Below are positions 1 through 42,236 of a stretch of 42,236 bases of DNA, piece by piece. The DNA is from a virus, in the UHGV virus genome UHGV-0797471; one strand, 5' to 3'. The position numbers were made by a program, and so were the translations under genes. Position 1 is the first letter of the stretch. Every line of letters starts with the position of its first letter. The notes below the pieces were generated by a model, which saw only the letters and a list, made by a program, of their open reading frames with translations, was not told the DNA's origin and ran no database searches.

Positions 1-472
1 ATTCTCAATCCTTATCTGCGTAGGCGCAGAAAACAAGCACACACATACAAGTCTTTTCTACGGGACAAAATGCAATGTGTTGCGGCTTTGTGTTACTGGA
101 CTGAGTTTATCAAGGTTAAATACACTGGATCAACATACAGTAAGTTAATGACAGTAAAGCATACAAACTCGATACAACTTACTGATTTTTAAAATGATTT
201 AACGGTAATTCATTGAAATGTCTTTACTAATTACTAAACGCTGTATTAATTGTGATATGTGTGAAATTAAATAAAAATACATTTATTTTCATGGTGATGC
301 AGTAATGTGTTATTGAATGTGTTATTGAATTTATGGTGCAAAAAAATTTTGCATACGTTCAGCAACACAAAGAGCTCCCCTTTCTATAAAGGTTCATTTG
401 AGACTCCCCCTTGACTCCCTCTTCGAAATTGAAGACCATTAACTGTACATAATTACAGTCCTGGATAATATT

Positions 473-739
473 ATGCGCAGAAAAGAATCAAACGTTAGCA
501 GTTTGCCGGAACTCACCAATTTTGAGGTAAGCTATTCCCTAGTTACCAATGAAGTTTACTTGTCTGCATCCTTCACTGATAACATGGCCTGTATACCAAA
601 CTGGCCCTTACAAGAATTTCCGGATCAACTAATATGCATTTCTCGAGCAAAAGCTATTGCCCTAATCGAAGAGCTCCAGAAGACCATCGACTATATGGAC
701 GCAGGAATCGATCGACAATCAGGTAGCCTGCTCCAGTAG
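473..739 (+). CDS. Hypothetical small protein (88 aa) in AT-rich cargo region
   Basis: ORF in six-frame track; no recognisable motif; weak ribosome-binding site; AT-rich context. Confidence 0.25.
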   Translation: MRRKESNVSSLPELTNFEVSYSLVTNEVYLSASFTDNMACIPNWPLQEFPDQLICISRAKAIALIEELQKTIDYMDAGIDRQSGSLLQ

Positions 740-1040
740 CTGGCGAGTTTTATACTCGTTCCCTGCAACAATGGGCTTTTGGTAAGGCACTCACAAATAA
801 GGAATTCGTTAAGGCTTTTGTTCTGGAGACTCTGAAAGATACAAGGAATCAGTTGATGGCTGGTTTGATCATACTAATTAATATATTGTCAAACTCACAA
901 TATATTAATTAGTGGTAGAACATAAAACCGAGTTCTTGACTTTCAATAGCTATTATATGCGATCAACAACCTTAACCATCTCCTTATATTTTATGAGATA
1001 CTCAAACAATTTAAATTTATGAGCAAAGGAAAATAATAAA

Positions 1041-1886
1041 GTGAATAAAAATCCCTGGGATATTCCAGCATGGCACGCTCTGGGCCGAGAAGCATCTTTA
1101 GTTACACAGCTCATTGGTTCTGGGGCAACAGCCATAGGTAAAGCCAATTATGCAGACAAAATAGGTGAATATTACACAGCATTTTTTGGGCTTTCTGTAG
1201 GTTTTGAGAGACTTGCTAAACTAATACTTGTTGCACACTATGCCATTGAACACAAAGGGAAAATGCCTGATGAGAATATTGTAAGAAAATTTGGACATAA
1301 GCTCATTGAATTAACCAACGAGGTTGATAGTATTTCTAAAAAAATGCAACTATCTCTGAGATATTCACGTCCTACACATAAAATTACCTACAAAATACTT
1401 GAATGTTTAGATTCCTTTGCTGATGCCCGACGGGGACGTTACGCAAATTTCTCCTCATTAAGCAGCCCCAATTTAACCAATAATGAACCTATTAATAAAT
1501 GGTGGGGAGAAGTAGCCGAGAGTATCCTTGAAAAACATTATTATTATACAGTTGAACAAAGACGTGTTGAAGAAAATGCTAGGTTTATCAATGCCACTCT
1601 TTCACCGTATACAACGGTCATGTATATGAATGAAAGTACCAACATTATGCAAGACCTTATATCAGCCTCCATCCGTACTGGACAAAATACCATTGTTCAA
1701 AAGTGGGGAAGATTCTATTCTCTTAGCATCGCTCGTTGGCTTGCCACAGTATTAGCAGAACTGTCTGATATAGCTTCTCATAAATATGGAATAATTAGTT
1801 TTTATGGCCTTAGTGAACATTGTTGCAGTTATATAGTTGAAGATAGTTTTTTAAAAAACAGAAAAATATGGCCACTTCGCCAATAG
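1041..1886 (+). CDS. Hypothetical cargo (moron) protein, 281 aa, function unknown
   Basis: GTG start with AAAGGA Shine-Dalgarno about 9 nt upstream; AT-rich compared with tail genes; ends 5 bp from the truncated invertase stop; no family recognised by eye. Confidence 0.5.
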   Translation: MNKNPWDIPAWHALGREASLVTQLIGSGATAIGKANYADKIGEYYTAFFGLSVGFERLAKLILVAHYAIEHKGKMPDENIVRKFGHKLIELTNEVDSISKKMQLSLRYSRPTHKITYKILECLDSFADARRGRYANFSSLSSPNLTNNEPINKWWGEVAESILEKHYYYTVEQRRVEENARFINATLSPYTTVMYMNESTNIMQDLISASIRTGQNTIVQKWGRFYSLSIARWLATVLAELSDIASHKYGIISFYGLSEHCCSYIVEDSFLKNRKIWPLRQ

Positions 1887-1890
1887 TTAA

Positions 1891-2205
1891 CTAGAAAATC
1901 TGCATAAGGGGGAGAAATCCCCCACCTGTAATAACATAACTACTAAAATTAACACCTTGTTCGCACAACTCCTCCACCAGCACGACAAGATGCCGCACAC
2001 TGCGCCCCAGCCGATCCAGCTTCCAGACAACCAGAGTGTCACCTGCCGATAATGTCCTGAGCAGTTTTTTCAGTCCCGGCCTTTCGGACTTTGTACCGCT
2101 TATCTTGTCTTCAAAAAACAGCTCGCATCCTGCACAGTTCAGCGCATTACGTTGTAGATCTGTGTTCTGGTCATTTGTTGACACACGTACATAGCCAATA
2201 AGCAT
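1891..2205 (-). pseudogene. Truncated serine recombinase / DNA invertase (Gin/Hin/Pin/Cin family), catalytic N-terminus only
   Basis: MLIGYVRVSTNDQNTDLQRNAL...GDTLVVWKLDRLGRS matches the invertase catalytic domain. The ORF stops after about 104 aa where full-length invertases are about 185-195 aa. No C-terminal HTH segment in any minus-strand frame; a G/C homopolymer sits at the divergence point. Confidence 0.7.
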
Positions 2206-2231
2206 AGTGGATCCCTCTGACAAAAGCAGGA

Positions 2232-2630
2232 ATGATGCCATTTGCTCGTTATTTCTGCATTTTCATAAACGTTGGTTTGGGAGAAGCGGCAAAACGGAAT
2301 GTGGGCACAGGAGATAATCAGATACCGGATATGGGAGCATTCGCTTCTGGTTCGGGATGGTTCAGGCTACCAGGTGGATATATTGTTCAGTTTGGCACTT
2401 TTTCAGGAAACACGACCCGCTTTATCAGTGGACACTTCCCTATACCATTCCCTAATCAGCCGATGATTTCAGTCAGTGTTATGTCTGATGCCGTTCAGTC
2501 AGACCCGTCGAATCCTGCCCCGCAGGTTTTGTCTGTAAATTTTGAACATATCAGTAATTCAGCGTGGCGTGTGGCAACCAGTGATATCTCACAGCAATAC
2601 AGATTCAGTTATATTTCGATAGGACGGTAG
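2232..2630 (+). CDS. Alternative tail-fibre C-terminal cassette (silent orientation; would fuse to the constant N-terminus after inversion)
   Basis: Shares the NxGLGE junction with tail fibre 3638-4450 at the inverted-repeat crossover; followed by a tail-fibre assembly gene; lacks its own N-terminal constant part. Confidence 0.5.
   Translation: MMPFARYFCIFINVGLGEAAKRNVGTGDNQIPDMGAFASGSGWFRLPGGYIVQFGTFSGNTTRFISGHFPIPFPNQPMISVSVMSDAVQSDPSNPAPQVLSVNFEHISNSAWRVATSDISQQYRFSYISIGR
2261..2286. repeat. Invertase crossover site (hix/gix-like), left copy
   Basis: Reverse complement CTTCTCCCAAACCAACGTTTATGAAA. The 15-mer CTTCTCCCAAACCAA is a perfect inverted repeat of 4081-4095. Resemblance to the hix/gix consensus is judged from memory. 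Confidence 0.55.
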
Positions 2631-2632
2631 AA

Positions 2633-3073
2633 ATGCAGAAATATATTTTCAGTGCCGATAAAAATGCGTTTTTCCCTGTGGAGCTTAAAATCGCTTATCA
2701 GGAATCCGGCGAATGGCCCGATGATGGAATCGAAATTGACGACACTGTTGCTGCCGAATTTATGAAGGAAGCACCAGAAGGAAAATACAGAGGTGTCATC
2801 GACGGAATGCCTGCATGGATTGATATTCCACCGCCAACTCATGAGGAACAAATTGCCGCAGCCGAACTGAAAAAGCAGCAATTGATTAATCAGGTCAACG
2901 AATACATAAACAGTAAGCAATGGCCTGGTAAAGCGGCGATTGGTCGCCTGAAAGGTGAGGAACTGGTGCAATATAATTTGTGGCTGGATTATCTGGACGC
3001 ACTGGAACTGGTCGATACTTCCGGTGCGCCAGATATTGAATGGCCTACGCCTCCGGCAGTTCAGGCCAGATGA
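2633..3073 (+). CDS. Tail fibre assembly protein (alternative copy)
   Basis: C-terminus ...[14 protein letters not shown] parallels the ...[14 protein letters not shown] end of the convergent assembly gene; position mirrors Mu U'. Confidence 0.6.
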   Translation: MQKYIFSADKNAFFPVELKIAYQESGEWPDDGIEIDDTVAAEFMKEAPEGKYRGVIDGMPAWIDIPPPTHEEQIAAAELKKQQLINQVNEYINSKQWPGKAAIGRLKGEELVQYNLWLDYLDALELVDTSGAPDIEWPTPPAVQAR

Positions 3074-3641
3074 CATCCGGCGCGGTGCTGGTATCTGTTG
3101 CCGTCACCGCGTCAATGTAATCCAGCACAGCGTTAAGCCGGGTTGTTTCTGCCTGCGTCAGTTTCCGCCCGGCTTGTAATTTCAGCTGAATCAGACTAAT
3201 GGAAGCCATTGCTGCATCAATCAGTGACTGGCGCTGTGCTTCTGACGCGTCTACTGCGGCGCTATGCTGTGCCTCGGTATCCGTCACCCATTTCTCACCA
3301 TCCCATTTATCGTATGGCGTTAACGGTGAAAGCGTGACATAACCATCTTTGATGGCACCGATATAATCCACTGTAACAGCTGCGCCATTTTCGATTGAGT
3401 AAACAGTCTCATTGCGATGGTCCTCTTCATGGCTCCATCCCTTACCTGTAAATACAGCCACTTTTCCCGGAATGTTTTCGCCAGGGTTAATTCCAGTGGA
3501 ACAGGCGGGCATACTTACGCCAGTATTAATATATTCATCAGACCAGCCCGTATACTCAGATGTTTCAGCATCATAATAAAAACAACGCATATCGCCCGGC
3601 ACTGTAGCCAGTCCATTTTCATCAAAAATTGGGGTCATCAT
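3045..3641 (-). CDS. Tail fibre assembly protein
   Basis: Conserved C-terminal assembly-protein motif; immediately downstream of the tail fibre gene. Confidence 0.7.
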
Positions 3642-4450
3642 TTAGCCCTCACCAGAAAGTTAAATGCAATATTTCGCGGTCTGACGGCAACAAAATTCAC
3701 ACCATCACCCACAGAGTTACTGGTGAAATTAAATCGTGAAAATCCTGGCTGATTTCCGGCGATACCATCATGAAAATTAATTGTGTGGCCCGCACCATCG
3801 CCTATATTCCCGGCAAACTGAGAAAAGTTTGTAGCTGCCTGCCAGCTTAATAATTCGCGACCACCGTCTGCACCTCGCCCGTCATCCCAGATACGAATGA
3901 AATCACCGCGGGCTTCAGGTAATACCAGCGAAGGAAACACTTTCGCCAGCACAGGGTAATCAGAGGCAGAAAATTTCGCCCCGTTAAACTTCAAAAACAC
4001 CATACCGGACCAGCTGTCGATGACAGAATTTGGCATTGCAGCGGACGGCCAGAAGAACGGAACGCCAATAGCTGGGGCACCTTCTCCCAAACCAAGGTTT
4101 TCGAGAGCTGTTTTCACCGTGCCGTCCGATTTGATATCGCCAAACGGATTCTTGCGGCTCAGGTATTCAACAGCAAACCCCGATCCCAGCAATTCAACAA
4201 AACCGGGCAGATCACCATTATCAAGCACATCCCGTTGCGTTTTATCACTTACAAACTGGGCCAGAGCTGCAGCAATAAAGCTGGCCTGCCGAATAACCTT
4301 ATTGACTTGCGCACTGGAGGCTTTCCCTGCTGTAAATCCAGATAAAAGCGCGGGCAACGCTTCCCATTCCTCCTGCGATATAACATTGGCATTTCGATCC
4401 GTTGCAAACGCTTTAAAGTCATTTTTCGCCATCAGAGTAATACTCCCCAT
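3638..4450 (-). CDS. Tail fibre protein (constant N-terminus plus currently expressed variable C-terminus)
   Basis: Position between baseplate genes and assembly protein; crossover site lies inside the ORF at codons 117-124. Confidence 0.65.
4082..4107. repeat. Invertase crossover site (hix/gix-like), right copy
   Basis: TTCTCCCAAACCAAGGTTTTCGAGAG; inverted partner of 2261-2286, about 22 of 26 positions matching. Confidence 0.55.
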
Positions 4451-39252: not shown

Positions 39253-40647
39253 ATGCCCCCAAAATATATACCTCGCCCCTACCAAGTTCTCATTATCAAC
39301 CACGAAACCGAAACCCTGCGCGGCAACATCTGGGCGGGGATGGGAATGGGTAAAACCGTGGCAACGCTCACTGCGCTGGAAGATCTCTTTATGGCAGGGG
39401 CAGAAACATGCCCCGCACTGGTCCTCGCGCCGCTGCGCGTGGCTGCCAGCACATGGCCGGATGAAGCACTGAAGTGGGGACATTTGCGCAATATCGAGGT
39501 GCAGCCAATTATTGGTAATGCCAAAGCGCGCTCTATGGCGCTGACGAACAGCAACGCAAGCGTGTTCACCATCAACTACGATAACCTTGTCTGGCTGATT
39601 GAAGAATTGGGAGAACGATGGCCGTTCGGTACTGTCATTCCAGATGAAAGCACCCGGCTAAAATCCTTCCGGCTGCGCGGTGGTGGTAAGCGCGCGGCGG
39701 CGCTGGGCAAAGTGGCGCATAAGTATGTCCGGCGCTGGATAAATCTCACCGGTACGCCAGCACCGAACGGCCTGGTAGATTTGTGGGGACAATCGTGGTT
39801 TGTGGACCAGGGGCAACGTCTCGGGCGCACTTACGGCGCGTTTACCTCACGCTGGTTCAACTCGATACAGTTTCCGGGGCAGAGCTGGACCAAACTGGAG
39901 CCTTTTGCTCACTCACAGGGTGAAATACAGCGAGCGTTAGCCGATGTAACCCTCTCGCTGGATGCGGCCGACTGGTTCGATATCAAAGACCCCATCCATA
40001 ACGTAATCCGCGTGGATATGCCACCGAAGGCCCGTCAGCAGTATCGTGAAATGGAAAAGGAAATGTTCCTCGAGCTGAATGGCGAAGGCATCGAAGCACC
40101 GAACGCCGCGGCAAAGACACTGAAGTGTCTGCAAATCGCCAGCGGCGCAGTATACACAGATGACACCGGAAGTTGGTCAGAACTGCATGACACCAAACTA
40201 CAGGCGCTGGACAGCATACTGACCGAAGCAGCTGGCGCACCTGTGCTGGTTGCTTATCACTGGAAACACGATCTTGAACGCTTGCTTAAAGCATTCCCTC
40301 GCGGTCGTCACCTCGACCAGGATCCACAGACACTGCGCGACTGGAATTCCGGAAAGATTCCTGTTCTCTTTGCACACCCAGCCAGCGCGGGCCACGGCCT
40401 GAACATGCAGGACGGCGGAAATATACTGGTATTTTTCTCACACTGGTGGGACCTGGAGCAATATCAGCAAATTATTGAACGTATCGGCCCCACCAGGCAG
40501 ATACAGGCCGGACACAATCGTCCGGTATTTATTCACCACATTATTGCTGCCGACACTATGGATGAAATGGTGATGGAGCGGCGCAACTCAAAACGAACAG
40601 TGCAGGACATCCTGCTCGATGCCATGAAAAAGAGAGGTATAGCATGA
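39253..40647 (+). CDS. SNF2-family helicase
   Basis: Walker A GMGMGKTV; DExx-like IPDESTRLK; 464 aa; follows VRR-NUC as in the known phage module. Confidence 0.8.
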   Translation: MPPKYIPRPYQVLIINHETETLRGNIWAGMGMGKTVATLTALEDLFMAGAETCPALVLAPLRVAASTWPDEALKWGHLRNIEVQPIIGNAKARSMALTNSNASVFTINYDNLVWLIEELGERWPFGTVIPDESTRLKSFRLRGGGKRAAALGKVAHKYVRRWINLTGTPAPNGLVDLWGQSWFVDQGQRLGRTYGAFTSRWFNSIQFPGQSWTKLEPFAHSQGEIQRALADVTLSLDAADWFDIKDPIHNVIRVDMPPKARQQYREMEKEMFLELNGEGIEAPNAAAKTLKCLQIASGAVYTDDTGSWSELHDTKLQALDSILTEAAGAPVLVAYHWKHDLERLLKAFPRGRHLDQDPQTLRDWNSGKIPVLFAHPASAGHGLNMQDGGNILVFFSHWWDLEQYQQIIERIGPTRQIQAGHNRPVFIHHIIAADTMDEMVMERRNSKRTVQDILLDAMKKRGIA

Positions 40648-40844
40648 GCGAGAAACCCGACGATTTACTCACCCCGGATGAAGTATGCCAAAAGTTAGGT
40701 ATTACACAGAAAACGCTATGTGAGTGGAATATTAAGCATCGTCATCGGGCTATCCTGGCACCAATTCGTTTCAGTGCAAAAGTAGTTCGTTATGAGCGCC
40801 GAAATATCGACGCTTTTATTCAAAAATGTCGCAGCCAGTATTAA
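40644..40844 (+). CDS. AlpA/MerR-type HTH DNA-binding protein (possible excisionase / regulator)
   Basis: 66 aa; LTPDEVCQKLGITQKTLCEW HTH; adjacent to integrase. Confidence 0.55.
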   Translation: MSEKPDDLLTPDEVCQKLGITQKTLCEWNIKHRHRAILAPIRFSAKVVRYERRNIDAFIQKCRSQY

Positions 40845-42133
40845 CCTCGCCGCCGTAGCAATGCCACCTGCGCAAGTATGCTCCGCTCGTGAGCCTCGAA
40901 AGCTTCGCGCTTCAACGCAATCTCTTCCTGTAAAATCTCATCAGAAAAGTCGTAATGTTCTGCCATCGGGTCATCTGACTTGCTGGAGTGGTGAAGGCAA
41001 AGGAGGCTGATTTCCCTTCGGTCTGAGCGGGAATAGCCTCTTTCCTTCATCAAGGCAATAACATTGCTCTTAAGGAATTTACGGCACATCGTATTAAATG
41101 CACCGTCTTTCCCTTTAACAGTCCCATCATGTTTTATTCCTTTTACAGCCCCGTCCGGGCTGTATGTTTTCACCAGCTTATCCAGTGATCGTTTTGAAAA
41201 TGGCTGCATTGGATCACGTGGCTGCAAAAATACATAATCCCTGTTGCACTCAGGAACTGAATCACGCCAGGCTTTCTGCTCGTCGATAATCCGCCGGATC
41301 TCAGGGGTTATCGGCAGGCGGAAAGCCTTTTGTGTTTTCATAGCCCCTCGCATGCCGATAACCCCTTCCGGATAAACAATTTCACCAGCCTCCTCGTGAA
41401 CGTAGTCCCAGCGCAGGTTATGGACATTAATCGGACGAACACCAGTGATGATCATGAAGCGAACAGCATTCTTCTGGTGTACAGAGGTGCAGGCAGCAAC
41501 ATTGAGCCAGAGTCGGGCGATTGATTCAATATCGGTAAAAAGCCGTGTGGGGGTAGGTTTCTGTACGCGGGAGGAAACATAATCATCTGGCAGACTGGCG
41601 GCAACATTGCGGCCGTTGCAAAGAGTAGGTGCGCAGAACTTCCAGAACCGACGGAGCTCGGCAAACAACTCCAGGGCGTTATTGTTCGAGCGAGTAGCGA
41701 TCCACTCGTCCAGCACTTCCACCAGCCGATTGTATGTTACGTCGCTGAACACCTCGCGCTCGCCGAACGTTGCTTTAATCCGGTCGATACGCACCCCGTA
41801 GGTTGTGAAACTGTCCGGGCTCAGCTTCTGCCGGGCGACTTTGGCTTTGAGGTCATCCCGGTACATTTCCAGCGCTGCATGTACGGACTCTGCCCGCAGG
41901 CCACCGTCAGCCATACCTAGCGCTTTTTCGCGCGCCAGCTGGATAGCGAGCTCCGGCCACTCGCCGAGCTTTTTACCTTTGAGGCCCATCTTTTTTGGAA
42001 ACTCGGCGTAAAATGTAACCTTACCGGCTTTGCTGAAATCGATACGGAGATAGTTCTCTTTTTCGTATTTGGAACGGCGAGCCACGCCGGAAGCAGCGAG
42101 GATGATTTTGGCGGCAGCAACACAGATTTTCAT
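40841..42133 (-). CDS. int: Tyrosine integrase (P4-like, divergent)
   Basis: 430 aa; N-terminal arm-binding-like segment (KYEKENYLRIDFSKAGKVTFYAEF...LAREKA); ITGVRP box-I-like motif; C-terminal His/Tyr-containing region; terminal position in prophage. Confidence 0.65.
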   Translation of the reverse strand: MKICVAAAKIILAASGVARRSKYEKENYLRIDFSKAGKVTFYAEFPKKMGLKGKKLGEWPELAIQLAREKALGMADGGLRAESVHAALEMYRDDLKAKVARQKLSPDSFTTYGVRIDRIKATFGEREVFSDVTYNRLVEVLDEWIATRSNNNALELFAELRRFWKFCAPTLCNGRNVAASLPDDYVSSRVQKPTPTRLFTDIESIARLWLNVAACTSVHQKNAVRFMIITGVRPINVHNLRWDYVHEEAGEIVYPEGVIGMRGAMKTQKAFRLPITPEIRRIIDEQKAWRDSVPECNRDYVFLQPRDPMQPFSKRSLDKLVKTYSPDGAVKGIKHDGTVKGKDGAFNTMCRKFLKSNVIALMKERGYSRSDRREISLLCLHHSSKSDDPMAEHYDFSDEILQEEIALKREAFEAHERSILAQVALLRRRG

Positions 42134-42236
42134 GTGTGCGCTGGTATAGGGGGGTTTACAGGCGTCCCATTTTTCAGATGCGGCTAAAACATCGTCATTA
42201 TTGGGGCTATCCGGATTATGTGTTACAGTGCGCGGC

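What the first reader, a model, noticed from the sequence alone, without database searches (positions are those of the whole stretch)
1..1890. AT-rich cargo region at the tail-fibre-distal end, with a gene replacing the invertase 3' end
Seen in sequence: strongly AT-rich non-coding DNA plus two ORFs (473-739 and GTG-initiated 1041-1886). The latter ends 5 bp from the truncated invertase stop, suggesting its acquisition deleted the invertase 3' half. A tandem 12-bp duplication (AATGTGTTATTG twice, 304-327) is present.

Established knowledge: the region between tail-fibre genes and the attachment site (lambda b region) is a hotspot for accessory and defence cargo.
Basis: partly seen in the sequence, partly recalled or inferred. 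Interest (0 to 1): 0.45.

Follow-up and report, generated by a model that had tools for sequence, protein, structure and literature searches.

The report
Prophage cargo gene: candidate HEPN-like defence
A 1.2-kb foreign cassette in this E. coli prophage overwrote half of the tail-fibre invertase gene and brought in an unannotated 281-aa protein, whose relatives sit inside restriction operons and prophage defence hotspots and which probably acts as a stand-alone anti-phage RNase.

Summary
Bases 1-472 are the phage attachment site (attP), with its core at 248-265. The 12-bp tandem repeat lies in an attP arm, is conserved in relatives, and is probably an integrase arm site. ORF 473-739 is conserved phage backbone.

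Related prophages at the same yfhH/yfhL site keep an intact 182-184-aa pinE plus a different 215-aa gene. Homology to them breaks at 754/755 and resumes at 1939-1945, inside the invertase.

The cassette carries a frameshifted 3' remnant of a dinI-like gene, a perfect 17-bp inverted repeat, and the 281-aa gene.

That protein has no Pfam, PADLOC, PHROG or NCBIfam match. It belongs to a family of about 950 clusters at 50% identity, almost all about 280 aa. Ten of 54 species-level loci sit between hsdS and hsdR of type I restriction operons. Others sit in both P2 accessory hotspots, beside Thoeris, or on IncX plasmids.

Most likely it is a solo abortive-infection RNase. This is inferred, not shown.

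The parts
1..218 (.). Integrase-proximal arm of attP. The window is the excised, circular form of the phage. It carries the motif copies AATGTGTTGCGG (75-86) and TTTGTGTTACTG (88-99).
   Evidence: Window 1-240 matches, at 100%, the other prophage end between the integrase gene and yfhL in 160 E. coli genomes.
219..272 (+). Phage-borne mimic of the yfhL 5' end (MSLLITKRCINCDMCE...) containing the attP core at 248-265.
   Evidence: The three-way alignment of attP, attL and attR shows that only AATTGTGATATGTGTGAA (248-265) is common to all three. Bases 228-265 are identical to yfhL in some genomes.
304..327 (+). Tandem 12-mer AATGTGTTATTG x2 in the P' arm. Probably arm-type integrase-binding sites rather than a recent duplication.
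   Evidence: Seen. It is conserved, with one substitution, in the 93%-identical relatives F11 and 2013C-4465. Five of the 7 plus-strand matches to [AT]TGTGTT[AG][CT] in the 42-kb window, and the only minus-strand match, lie within about 450 bp around the core.
357..372 (-). Inverted copy of the same motif. It pairs with 86-101 across the core.
   Evidence: Inverted repeat I3 (16 nt, 88% complementary).
473..739 (+). ORF88, a conserved backbone gene of unknown function. It is not part of the swapped cassette.
   Evidence: It matches phrog_17793 (unknown function) at E 5.8e-46. Window 228-754 is present in 159 E. coli genomes, whichever cargo follows it.
755..1944 (.). The swapped cassette (1.19 kb). 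It replaces about 1.07 kb that in relatives holds a 215-aa gene and the 3' half of pinE.
   Evidence: Homology to F11 and 2013C-4465 ends at 754 and resumes at 1939/1945. The cassette is found in 44 of 5,426 complete E. coli genomes, each time beside the truncated recombinase (separated from it by an IS421 insertion in one genome, L033).
762..881 (+). Frameshifted 3' remnant of a DinI-like gene (...FVLETLKDT... / ...ESVDGWFDHTN*). A scar from the donor element.
   Evidence: It is 73-77% identical in nucleotides to the 3' ends of annotated DinI-like genes in E. coli prophages and phage-plasmids.
873..913 (.). Perfect 17-bp inverted repeat with a 7-nt spacer (ACTAATTAATATATTGT / ACAATATATTAATTAGT), 130 nt upstream of the 281-aa gene. 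Its role is unknown; an operator or a transcript hairpin are possibilities.
   Evidence: The RNA fold is -17 kcal/mol, z = -7.2, with 0 of 200 shuffles as stable. No U-tract follows, and the terminator scan does not call it.
1041..1886 (+). The 281-aa cargo gene (GTG start, AGGA 9 nt upstream). A candidate solo HEPN-like defence protein.
   Evidence: See the full report.
1908..1923 (.). GC hairpin GGGGGA-GAAA-TCCCCC between the cargo gene's stop codon and the invertase break.
   Evidence: Sequence. The fold is -14.6 kcal/mol, z = -3.1. The terminator scan does not call it.
1891..2241 (-). Truncated Pin/Gin-type serine invertase ORF. The genuine part is about 1942-2205 (residues 1-88 of 182-184), and the last 16 codons are foreign. 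The E-helix and the HTH domain are lost.
   Evidence: Pfam Resolvase matches only profile positions 2-98 of 145. RefSeq marks it as a pseudogene missing the C-terminus.
2267..4100 (.). Invertible tail-fibre segment bounded by 20-bp inverted crossover sites (2267-2286 and 4081-4100). It is still found in both orientations.
   Evidence: Inverted repeat I1, 95% complementary. Strain 22AR0747 has exactly this segment inverted at 99.9% identity, beside the same truncated invertase and cassette.
40841..42133 (-). Tyrosine integrase. Its upstream region runs across the window ends into attP.
   Evidence: Pfam Phage_integrase at E 3.4e-7, and a weak Arm-DNA-bind_3 match at E 0.067.

Best explanation
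Window 755-1944 is a cargo cassette that entered this temperate myovirus by illegitimate recombination with another mobile element. The donor was one in which the gene lay downstream of a dinI-like gene. The event overwrote the previous occupant of the slot between ORF88 and the invertase (a 215-aa gene in relatives) together with the 3' half of pin.

The 281-aa protein it encodes is the founding E. coli example of a large, unannotated family of stand-alone proteins of about 280 aa. I propose that it is a latent HEPN-like ribonuclease that works as a single-protein abortive-infection defence. Expressed from the prophage, it would stay inactive until a competing phage infects. It would then cleave host or phage RNA (tRNA or rRNA, as other solo HEPN defences do) and stop the infection. 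The proposed active site is built from invariant H86 in the loop before helix 88-101, a basic residue at position 82, and the invariant E56-R57-x2-K60 face of helix 2. R133-Y134-x-N136 may contribute.

What is shown:
- the swap and its boundaries;
- the family's size, conservation and solo architecture;
- its genomic contexts.

What is supported but not proven: the HEPN-like fold.

What is inferred: the defence function, the RNase chemistry and the trigger.
For: The swap:
- Breakpoints lie at 754/755 and 1939-1945 relative to relatives that keep an intact pinE plus a different gene.
- A dinI remnant marks the left side as a scar.
- GC is 0.35-0.39 over the gene, against about 0.5 in the adjacent tail genes.
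- The cassette occurs in 44 of 5,426 genomes at 98.7-100% identity, with an intact ORF each time.

The family:
- 486 hits with a single sequence and 949 representatives at 50% identity. Full-length members are about 265-290 aa with one matched stretch.
- E56, K60, H86, Y134 and W154 are invariant across 65 members at 26-48% identity. Position 82 is R or K in 60 of 65.

Context:
- 10 of 54 species-level loci have the order hsdM-hsdS-[gene]-hsdR on one strand. In 6 of them the gene lies 9-17 nt after hsdS; in the other 4 a further ORF of about 204-245 aa separates them. hsdR follows after 9-19 nt in the 7 loci where it was detected. The 10 fall on at least 5 separate branches of the family.
- One copy lies directly after hsdR, beside an integrase, in an island with HNH, Vsr and DUF4917 genes.
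- In Serratia P2-like prophages it lies between gpA and the portal gene, in one case next to a PvuII restriction system. This is the documented P2 defence hotspot (PMC9122126).
- In a Morganella P2-like prophage it lies between the tail-fibre assembly gene and the sheath gene. By my knowledge this is the P2 Z/fun position; accessory and defence cargo within P2 tail genes is reported in bioRxiv 10.64898/2026.02.27.708500.
- It lies 3.5 kb from Thoeris thsA/thsB, and at the end of a Klebsiella lambdoid prophage.
- It appears in a Vibrio array of same-strand short ORFs, which is my integron-cassette reading, and on 134 plasmids, 116 of them conjugative.

Fold:
- The AlphaFold2 model has pLDDT 80 and pTM 0.81.
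- HEPN_AbiV is the only Pfam family matched by more than one of 65 members.
- An invariant acidic residue in helix 2 and an invariant His in the helix 3-4 loop match the HEPN geometry described in PMC3710099. That paper also lists families that keep the His but lose the Arg.

Precedent: HepS is a solo, prophage-borne HEPN abortive-infection protein with no partner (PMC13043305).
Against: - There is no experiment of any kind on this family.
- The canonical Rx4-6H motif is absent. The spacing is [R/K]-x3-H, and the basic residue is Lys in 28 of 65 members.
- Foldseek against the PDB and BFVD found nothing (best E 0.2-0.3). Profile searches of PDB sequences found nothing either.
- The Pfam AbiV hits are weak (E 0.002, 2 of 65 members).
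- Some HEPN-fold families are not nucleases, for example MtlR and the sacsin HEPN domain.
- For the 41 non-embedded loci scanned, most immediate neighbours are housekeeping genes. No formal enrichment statistic was computed.
- No promoter signal above background lies upstream of the gene, so expression in the lysogen is assumed.
Confidence: 0.55

Rival explanations
1. It is a defence or exclusion protein with a HEPN-like fold, but it is not a nuclease. It might instead be a sensor, an adaptor, or a protein that binds and blocks a phage or host factor. The conserved E-R-x2-K, H and R-Y-x-N residues would then form a ligand- or protein-binding site.
Against: An invariant His, an invariant acidic residue and a basic residue sit where HEPN nucleases place their catalytic residues (PMC3710099). 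Solo proteins with no effector partner normally have to carry the effector activity themselves.
Confidence: 0.17
2. It is a selfish toxin or addiction module that stabilises the mobile element or restriction operon carrying it. It would have an unrecognised antitoxin (RNA or a small protein) and no role in phage defence.
Against: In 6 of the restriction-embedded loci the gene is 9-17 nt from hsdS, and hsdR follows within 9-19 nt where it was detected (5 of those 6), which leaves no room for a partner. DNA similarity between the window and homologous loci starts only 16-37 nt upstream of the start codon and ends at the stop, so there is no conserved flanking RNA. No conserved neighbouring gene was seen across the contexts.
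Confidence: 0.1
3. It is a counter-defence or restriction-control protein, for example an anti-restriction factor or a regulator of type I enzymes, carried by phages and plasmids to help them establish.
For: It occurs on phages and conjugative plasmids and is physically linked to type I restriction genes.
Against: An inhibitor placed operonically between a host's own hsdS and hsdR would disable that system, yet this arrangement is seen on at least 5 branches of the family. The prophage positions it occupies are those known for defence cargo, not for early anti-defence genes (PMC9122126). The fold signal points to HEPN rather than to DNA mimics.
Confidence: 0.06
4. It is a phage structural or invertase-associated protein, and the truncated invertase is an annotation or assembly artefact.
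For: Only its position next to the tail-fibre and invertase module.
Against: Homologues occur in restriction operons, chromosomal islets, plasmids and a Vibrio array of short ORFs, with no phage genes nearby. In the phage collection it is found only in three near-identical E. coli phages. The same junction is present in 44 independent complete genomes and in three sequenced induced phages.
Confidence: 0.01

Closest known systems
HepS (solo HEPN abortive-infection protein of the Salmonella Gifsy-1 prophage; PMC13043305)
   Different: There is no detectable sequence relationship. HepS is about 218 aa with a canonical R100-x4-H105 motif, whereas this protein is 281 aa with [R/K]-x3-H and extra invariant residues. 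The trigger and substrate here are unknown, and nothing has been tested.
AbiV / Pfam HEPN_AbiV (PF18728), a lactococcal abortive-infection RNase
   Different: The window protein itself gives no AbiV hit, even at E up to 1. AbiV is about 200 aa and needs the abiV2 transcript as antitoxin, and no conserved flanking RNA exists here. Membership is not established.
PrrC / RloC anticodon nucleases (HEPN effectors embedded in type I restriction operons)
   Same: The genomic placement is the same in about one fifth of species-level loci: hsdM-hsdS-[gene]-hsdR on one strand. This suggests a back-up role if restriction is defeated (PrrC logic as described in PMC3710099).
   Different: PrrC and RloC carry an N-terminal ABC ATPase regulatory domain and a canonical HEPN motif. 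This family has no ATPase domain, is about 280 aa, and is mostly found outside restriction operons. There is no sequence similarity.
Prophage accessory ('moron') slots: the lambda b region and the P2 old/tin and Z/fun loci
   Same: The slot is variable and lies between structural genes and the attachment site, holding alternative single-gene cargo of low GC. Family members occupy both P2 slots in other genera (PMC9122126).
   Different: Here the exchange was imprecise and destroyed a neighbouring backbone gene, the invertase. This phage is neither lambdoid nor P2-like.

Membership tests
HEPN superfamily | Four-helix up-down bundle fold of the HEPN domain | tested here: inconclusive
HEPN superfamily | Rx4-6H catalytic motif at the helix 3 / helix 4 junction | tested here: not met
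   H86 is invariant and lies in the loop before helix 88-101. The nearest conserved basic residue is position 82 (R in 32 and K in 28 of 65 members), which gives [R/K]-x3-H. Variant families that keep the His but not the Arg are described in PMC3710099, so this lowers the membership claim but does not exclude HEPN-like chemistry.
HEPN superfamily | Conserved acidic or polar residue in helix 2 facing the motif | tested here: inconclusive
   E56 is invariant, R57 is conserved in 64 of 65 members, and K60 is invariant. All three lie in predicted helix 42-70.
HEPN superfamily | Dimerisation that juxtaposes two motifs; metal-independent RNase activity | not testable with these tools
   No multimer prediction and no biochemistry were available.
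AbiV family (PF18728) | Significant match to the family profile | tested here: not met
   The window protein has no Pfam hit at E up to 1. Only 2 of 65 distant members match weakly (best E 0.0022).
Known or candidate defence systems in PADLOC-DB v2.0.0 | Match to any model, including the PDC candidates from guilt-by-embedding | tested here: not met
   The window protein has zero hits. Among the 65 members there are only scattered weak hits (CARF_HEPN_mCpol in 2 members at E 0.003; PDC-S70 in 1 member at E 0.027).
Anti-phage defence gene (operational definition by context) | Recurrent embedding in, or adjacency to, known defence systems and location in mobile-element defence hotspots | tested here: met
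   10 of 54 species-level loci lie between hsdS and hsdR, on at least 5 branches of the family. One further Pfam-labelled case was found. Other contexts are the P2 gpA-portal slot, the P2 tail slot, a Thoeris island and a restriction/integrase island. No formal enrichment statistic was computed.
Anti-phage defence gene (operational definition by function) | Reduces plating or propagation of at least one phage | not testable with these tools
   This needs plaque assays.
Pin/Gin/Cin/Hin serine invertase (the neighbouring gene) | Complete catalytic domain with E-helix plus a C-terminal HTH DNA-binding domain | tested here: not met
   Only residues 1-88 of 182-184 remain. The Resolvase profile is covered over positions 2-98 of 145.
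Type II/III toxin-antitoxin HEPN toxin | Conserved adjacent antitoxin gene or RNA | tested here: not met
   No conserved neighbour was seen across contexts. In 6 restriction-embedded loci the gene lies 9-17 nt from hsdS, and hsdR follows within 9-19 nt where detected. Flanking DNA is not conserved beyond 16-37 nt upstream.

The most novel reading that the evidence does not exclude
The 281-aa protein founds an undescribed, widespread family of single-protein immune effectors (about 950 clusters at 50% identity; Proteobacteria, with transfers to Mycobacterium, Nitrospinota and others). The family would use a re-wired HEPN active site: [R/K]-x3-H plus E-R-x2-K plus R-Y-x-N. It would serve as a portable second line of defence, operonic with type I restriction in some hosts (as PrrC is) and carried solo by prophages and conjugative plasmids in others.
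Probability: 0.35. Interest if true: 0.65.

Novelty: new variant of a known kind. Interest (0 to 1): 0.5.

Why it matters
If the protein is a working defence, it adds a sizeable family to the bacterial immune repertoire that Pfam, NCBIfam, PHROGs and PADLOC (including its embedding-derived candidates) all miss. It would also show that HEPN-type chemistry can run on a motif outside the Rx4-6H rule used to recognise such enzymes. The family moves between restriction operons, both P2 hotspots, a Vibrio array of short ORFs and IncX plasmids that circulate in clinical Enterobacteriaceae. It may therefore influence phage susceptibility of strains relevant to phage therapy. The locus is also a clean natural example of an imprecise cargo swap that cost the phage a backbone gene, with the lost function apparently supplied in trans by the host's other invertases.

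Tried and rejected
- Pfam, PADLOC, PHROGs and NCBIfam scans of the 281-aa protein gave nothing.
- PDB sequence-profile searches with a 30-member and a 65-member alignment gave only chance hits.
- Foldseek against the PDB and BFVD gave nothing below E 0.2. The afdb50 library was unavailable.
- An Rfam scan of 1-2400 found no RNA family.
- Promoter and terminator scans were no better than shuffled sequence, so no claim about expression is made.
- I looked for a donor of the cassette. DNA similarity to homologous loci covers only the ORF plus 16-37 nt upstream. The dinI-like gene of a different prophage at the same att site (strain B771) does not match the remnant at the nucleotide level. No donor was identified.
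- I considered that ORF88 and the cargo gene form a two-gene system. I rejected this because ORF88 is kept with a different downstream gene in relatives and is absent from every other context of the family.
- I considered that the 12-bp repeat is a recent duplication or a cargo-related repeat. I rejected this because it is conserved in relatives and forms part of a motif set on both attP arms.
- Literature searches for the RefSeq protein accession and for the phage name found nothing.
Full report
**What the window is.** The window is a temperate E. coli myovirus in its circular (attP) form. Bases 228 onward are 99.7% identical to one end of prophages that sit next to yfhH in E. coli chromosomes, and to three induced phages, vB_EcoM-606R2, 611R5 and 683R1. 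Bases 1-240 match the other prophage end at 100%, between the integrase gene and yfhL. A three-way alignment of attP, attL and attR leaves AATTGTGATATGTGTGAA (248-265) as the common core. That core sits inside a phage-borne copy of the yfhL 5' end at 219-272. The integrase is 40841-42133 on the minus strand.

**Check of the observation.**
- GC is 0.31-0.43 across 1-1950, against about 0.44-0.56 in the adjacent tail genes.
- ORFs 473-739 and 1041-1886 and the truncated invertase ORF 1891-2241 (minus strand) are present.
- The stop codons are 4 bp apart, not 5.
- The tandem AATGTGTTATTG x2 is at 304-327.

**The 12-mer belongs to attP, not to cargo.** Both copies are kept, with one substitution, in relatives that are only 93% identical. 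Similar motifs occur at 75-86 and 88-99 on the other arm. An inverted copy lies at 357-372, and another match lies at 42218. In all, 5 of the 7 plus-strand matches to [AT]TGTGTT[AG][CT] in 42 kb, and the only minus-strand match, lie within about 450 bp of the core. Direct repeats on both arms are what arm-type integrase sites look like. This rests on established knowledge of lambda-type attP sites, and binding was not tested.

**Extent of the cargo.**
- 159 E. coli genomes carry window 228-754, which includes ORF88.
- Only 44 carry 755-1944, each time beside the truncated recombinase. In one of them an IS421 element has inserted between the gene and the recombinase remnant.
- In strains F11 and 2013C-4465, homology stops at 754 and resumes at 1945 and 1939 respectively.
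- Between those points the relatives carry a 215-aa gene with no Pfam or PADLOC match, plus an intact 182-184-aa pinE.
- The window's invertase keeps residues 1-88 and then reads 16 unrelated codons.
- The swapped cassette is therefore 755-1944. ORF88 (phrog_17793, function unknown) is backbone.

**Inside the cassette.**
- Bases 762-881 are a frameshifted 3' remnant of a DinI-like gene. It is 73-77% identical in nucleotides to many annotated dinI-like genes, and its translation ends ...ESVDGWFDHTN*.
- A perfect 17-bp inverted repeat at 873-913 overlaps the remnant's stop codon. It folds at -17 kcal/mol with z = -7.2.
- The 281-aa gene follows, and then a GC hairpin at 1908-1923.
- Two truncated genes at the two edges, dinI on the left and pin on the right, mark this as the derived state and point to an imprecise recombination with another mobile element. 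No donor was found.

**The 281-aa protein: family.**
- It has no match in Pfam, PADLOC v2, PHROGs or NCBIfam.
- A single-sequence search finds 486 relatives at E <= 0.001. The 120 best are listed, nearly all 279-283 aa, with no Pfam domain on record and, where a source names them, only "hypothetical protein". They reach 56-74% identity in Enterobacterales, Vibrio, Halomonadaceae and Alphaproteobacteria.
- A profile search of 1.8 billion representatives finds 949 clusters at 50% identity.
- In 65 members at 26-48% identity, E56, K60, H86, Y134 and W154 are invariant. E17, G28, A35, Y44, A47, F49, G54, R57, L61, L123, F126, R133, N136, P150, V158, E198 and R232 are at least 90% conserved. Position 82 is R or K in 60 of 65.

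**The 281-aa protein: genomic context.**
- A one-genome-per-species scan returned 54 loci, including Mycobacterium paraense at 52% identity, a Nitrospinota genome and a Longimicrobiaceae genome.
- In 10 of these the order is hsdM-hsdS-[gene]-hsdR on one strand. In 6 the gene lies 9-17 nt after hsdS. In the other 4 a further ORF of about 204-245 aa separates them. hsdR follows after 9-19 nt in the 7 loci where it was detected. The 10 are spread over at least 5 branches of the family. A Pfam-labelled metagenomic example shows the same order.
- Other contexts found:
  - directly after hsdR, next to an integrase, in an island with HNH, Vsr and DUF4917 genes;
  - between gpA and the portal gene of Serratia P2-like prophages, once beside a PvuII restriction system. 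This is the defence hotspot described in PMC9122126;
  - between the tail-fibre assembly gene and the sheath gene of a Morganella P2-like prophage. By my knowledge this is the P2 Z/fun slot, and accessory and defence cargo inside P2 tail genes is reported in bioRxiv 10.64898/2026.02.27.708500;
  - 3.5 kb from Thoeris genes;
  - at the end of a Klebsiella lambdoid prophage;
  - in a Vibrio vulnificus array of same-strand short ORFs, which I read as integron cassettes;
  - as solo chromosomal islets;
  - on 134 plasmids, 116 of them conjugative, including a 273-aa member on IncX backbones.
- Immediate neighbours of the 41 non-embedded loci scanned are mostly housekeeping genes. Scattered among them are Fic/SoFic, Phd, AbiJ, Druantia, MADS, reverse-transcriptase and methyltransferase hits.
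- The site between hsdS and hsdR is a recognised place for embedded defences (PMC12255303; bioRxiv 10.1101/2024.01.29.577857). This family is not among the embedding-derived candidates already in PADLOC.

**The 281-aa protein: fold.**
- The AlphaFold2 model is all-helical, with pLDDT 80 and pTM 0.81. Residues 135-148 and 268-281 are of low confidence.
- About 20 of the top 60 hits are HEPN-superfamily structures. They include YutE, HepT toxins, AF0298, sacsin HEPN, Csm6, AbiA, HepS, AbiV, MtlR/YggD, 1wwp and the integron-cassette protein 3jrt. Several of these assignments come from PMC3710099, and a few from my own knowledge.
- The rest of the list is generic helical bundles.
- Foldseek found nothing.
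- HEPN_AbiV is the only Pfam family hit by more than one of the 65 members, and only weakly.
- The invariant His sits in the loop before helix 88-101, and an invariant Glu sits in helix 2. HEPN nucleases place their His and acidic residue at these positions (PMC3710099).
- The canonical Rx4-6H spacing is not met. I therefore do not file the protein as a HEPN member, and I say only that it most likely works like one.

**Mechanism proposed.** I propose a latent, stand-alone RNase that aborts infection by competing phages. The closest functional model is HepS, a solo prophage HEPN protein activated by a phage structural protein (PMC13043305). In restriction-embedded homologues the model is PrrC (PMC3710099). 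Defence function, RNase chemistry and trigger are all inferred. The rival explanations, in decreasing order of likelihood, are:
- a non-catalytic defence protein;
- a selfish toxin or addiction module;
- a counter-defence protein or restriction regulator;
- a structural or invertase-associated protein, which the data exclude.

**Side result on the invertase.** The invertible tail-fibre segment is 2267-4100, bounded by 20-bp inverted sites. Strain 22AR0747 has the same cassette and the same truncated invertase at 99.7% identity, but its segment is inverted. Several other genomes also break at 2286. The switch has therefore flipped since the truncation. It was presumably flipped by another Pin-family invertase acting in trans; cross-complementation among Gin, Cin, Pin and Hin is established knowledge.

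**Verdict.** The gene is a credible, still untested candidate for a new solo defence family with a non-canonical HEPN-like site.

Noticed in passing
window 1-472 and 42134-42236: The window is the circularised phage. attP has its core at 248-265 inside a phage-borne mimic of the yfhL 5' end, so integration rebuilds yfhL with a phage-encoded N-terminus (MSLLITKRCINCDMCE against the host's MALLITKKCINCDMCE).
   Followed up: yes
window 75-99, 304-327, 357-372, 42218: A shared motif, [AT]TGTGTT[AG][CT], is clustered on both attP arms in direct orientation, with one inverted copy. These are probable arm-type integrase sites. The integrase has only a weak Arm-DNA-bind_3 match (E 0.067).
   Followed up: partly
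window 2267-4100; L089 5040-6873: The invertible tail-fibre segment is found in both orientations among near-identical lysogens that all carry the truncated invertase. This implies inversion in trans by another invertase after the truncation.
   Followed up: yes
window 873-913: A perfect 17-bp AT-only inverted repeat with a 7-nt spacer (-17 kcal/mol, z -7.2) overlaps the stop codon of the dinI remnant and promoter-like hexamers on both strands. Its function is unexplained.
   Followed up: partly
L021 6573-7220; L022 6574-7221: The alternative occupant of the same slot in relatives is a 215-aa protein (WP_001288820 / WP_001288816) with no Pfam or PADLOC match. It is another uncharacterised cargo gene worth testing.
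   Followed up: partly
L023 1847-2668: Conjugative plasmids typed IncX1/IncX3 carry a 273-aa distant family member (about 25-33% identity, with the same SIGLER..K, GH and RYYN motifs). It lies near the resolvase, hns, hha and topB genes. In all, 134 plasmid records match, mostly from Klebsiella and E. coli.
   Followed up: partly
L042, L057, L073, L085 (between hsdS and the family gene): In four of the restriction-embedded loci, an extra ORF of about 204-245 aa sits between hsdS and the family gene. It was not analysed and could be a second embedded gene or a partner in that subgroup.
   Followed up: no
L045 10001-10831: Mycobacterium paraense encodes a homologue 52% identical to the E. coli phage protein. 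That is unusually high for a cross-phylum pair and indicates recent horizontal transfer and strong constraint.
   Followed up: no
L033 4937-6049; hit H17: Insertion sequences have landed in or next to the cassette in some genomes. IS421 lies between the gene and the invertase remnant, with window 1910-1922 duplicated on either side. An IS1 element lies within the matched region in another strain.
   Followed up: partly
L032 5241-5489: A different prophage uses the same att site. It shares only the first 145 nt of the P' arm and has a full DinI-like gene right next to att, followed by sigma-like and YadA-like genes. It is not the donor of the remnant at the nucleotide level.
   Followed up: partly
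window 40645-40842: A small ORF immediately upstream of, and convergent with, the integrase gene (MSEKPDDLLTPDEVCQKLGITQKTL...) looks like an AlpA/excisionase-type HTH protein. It was read by eye only.
   Followed up: no
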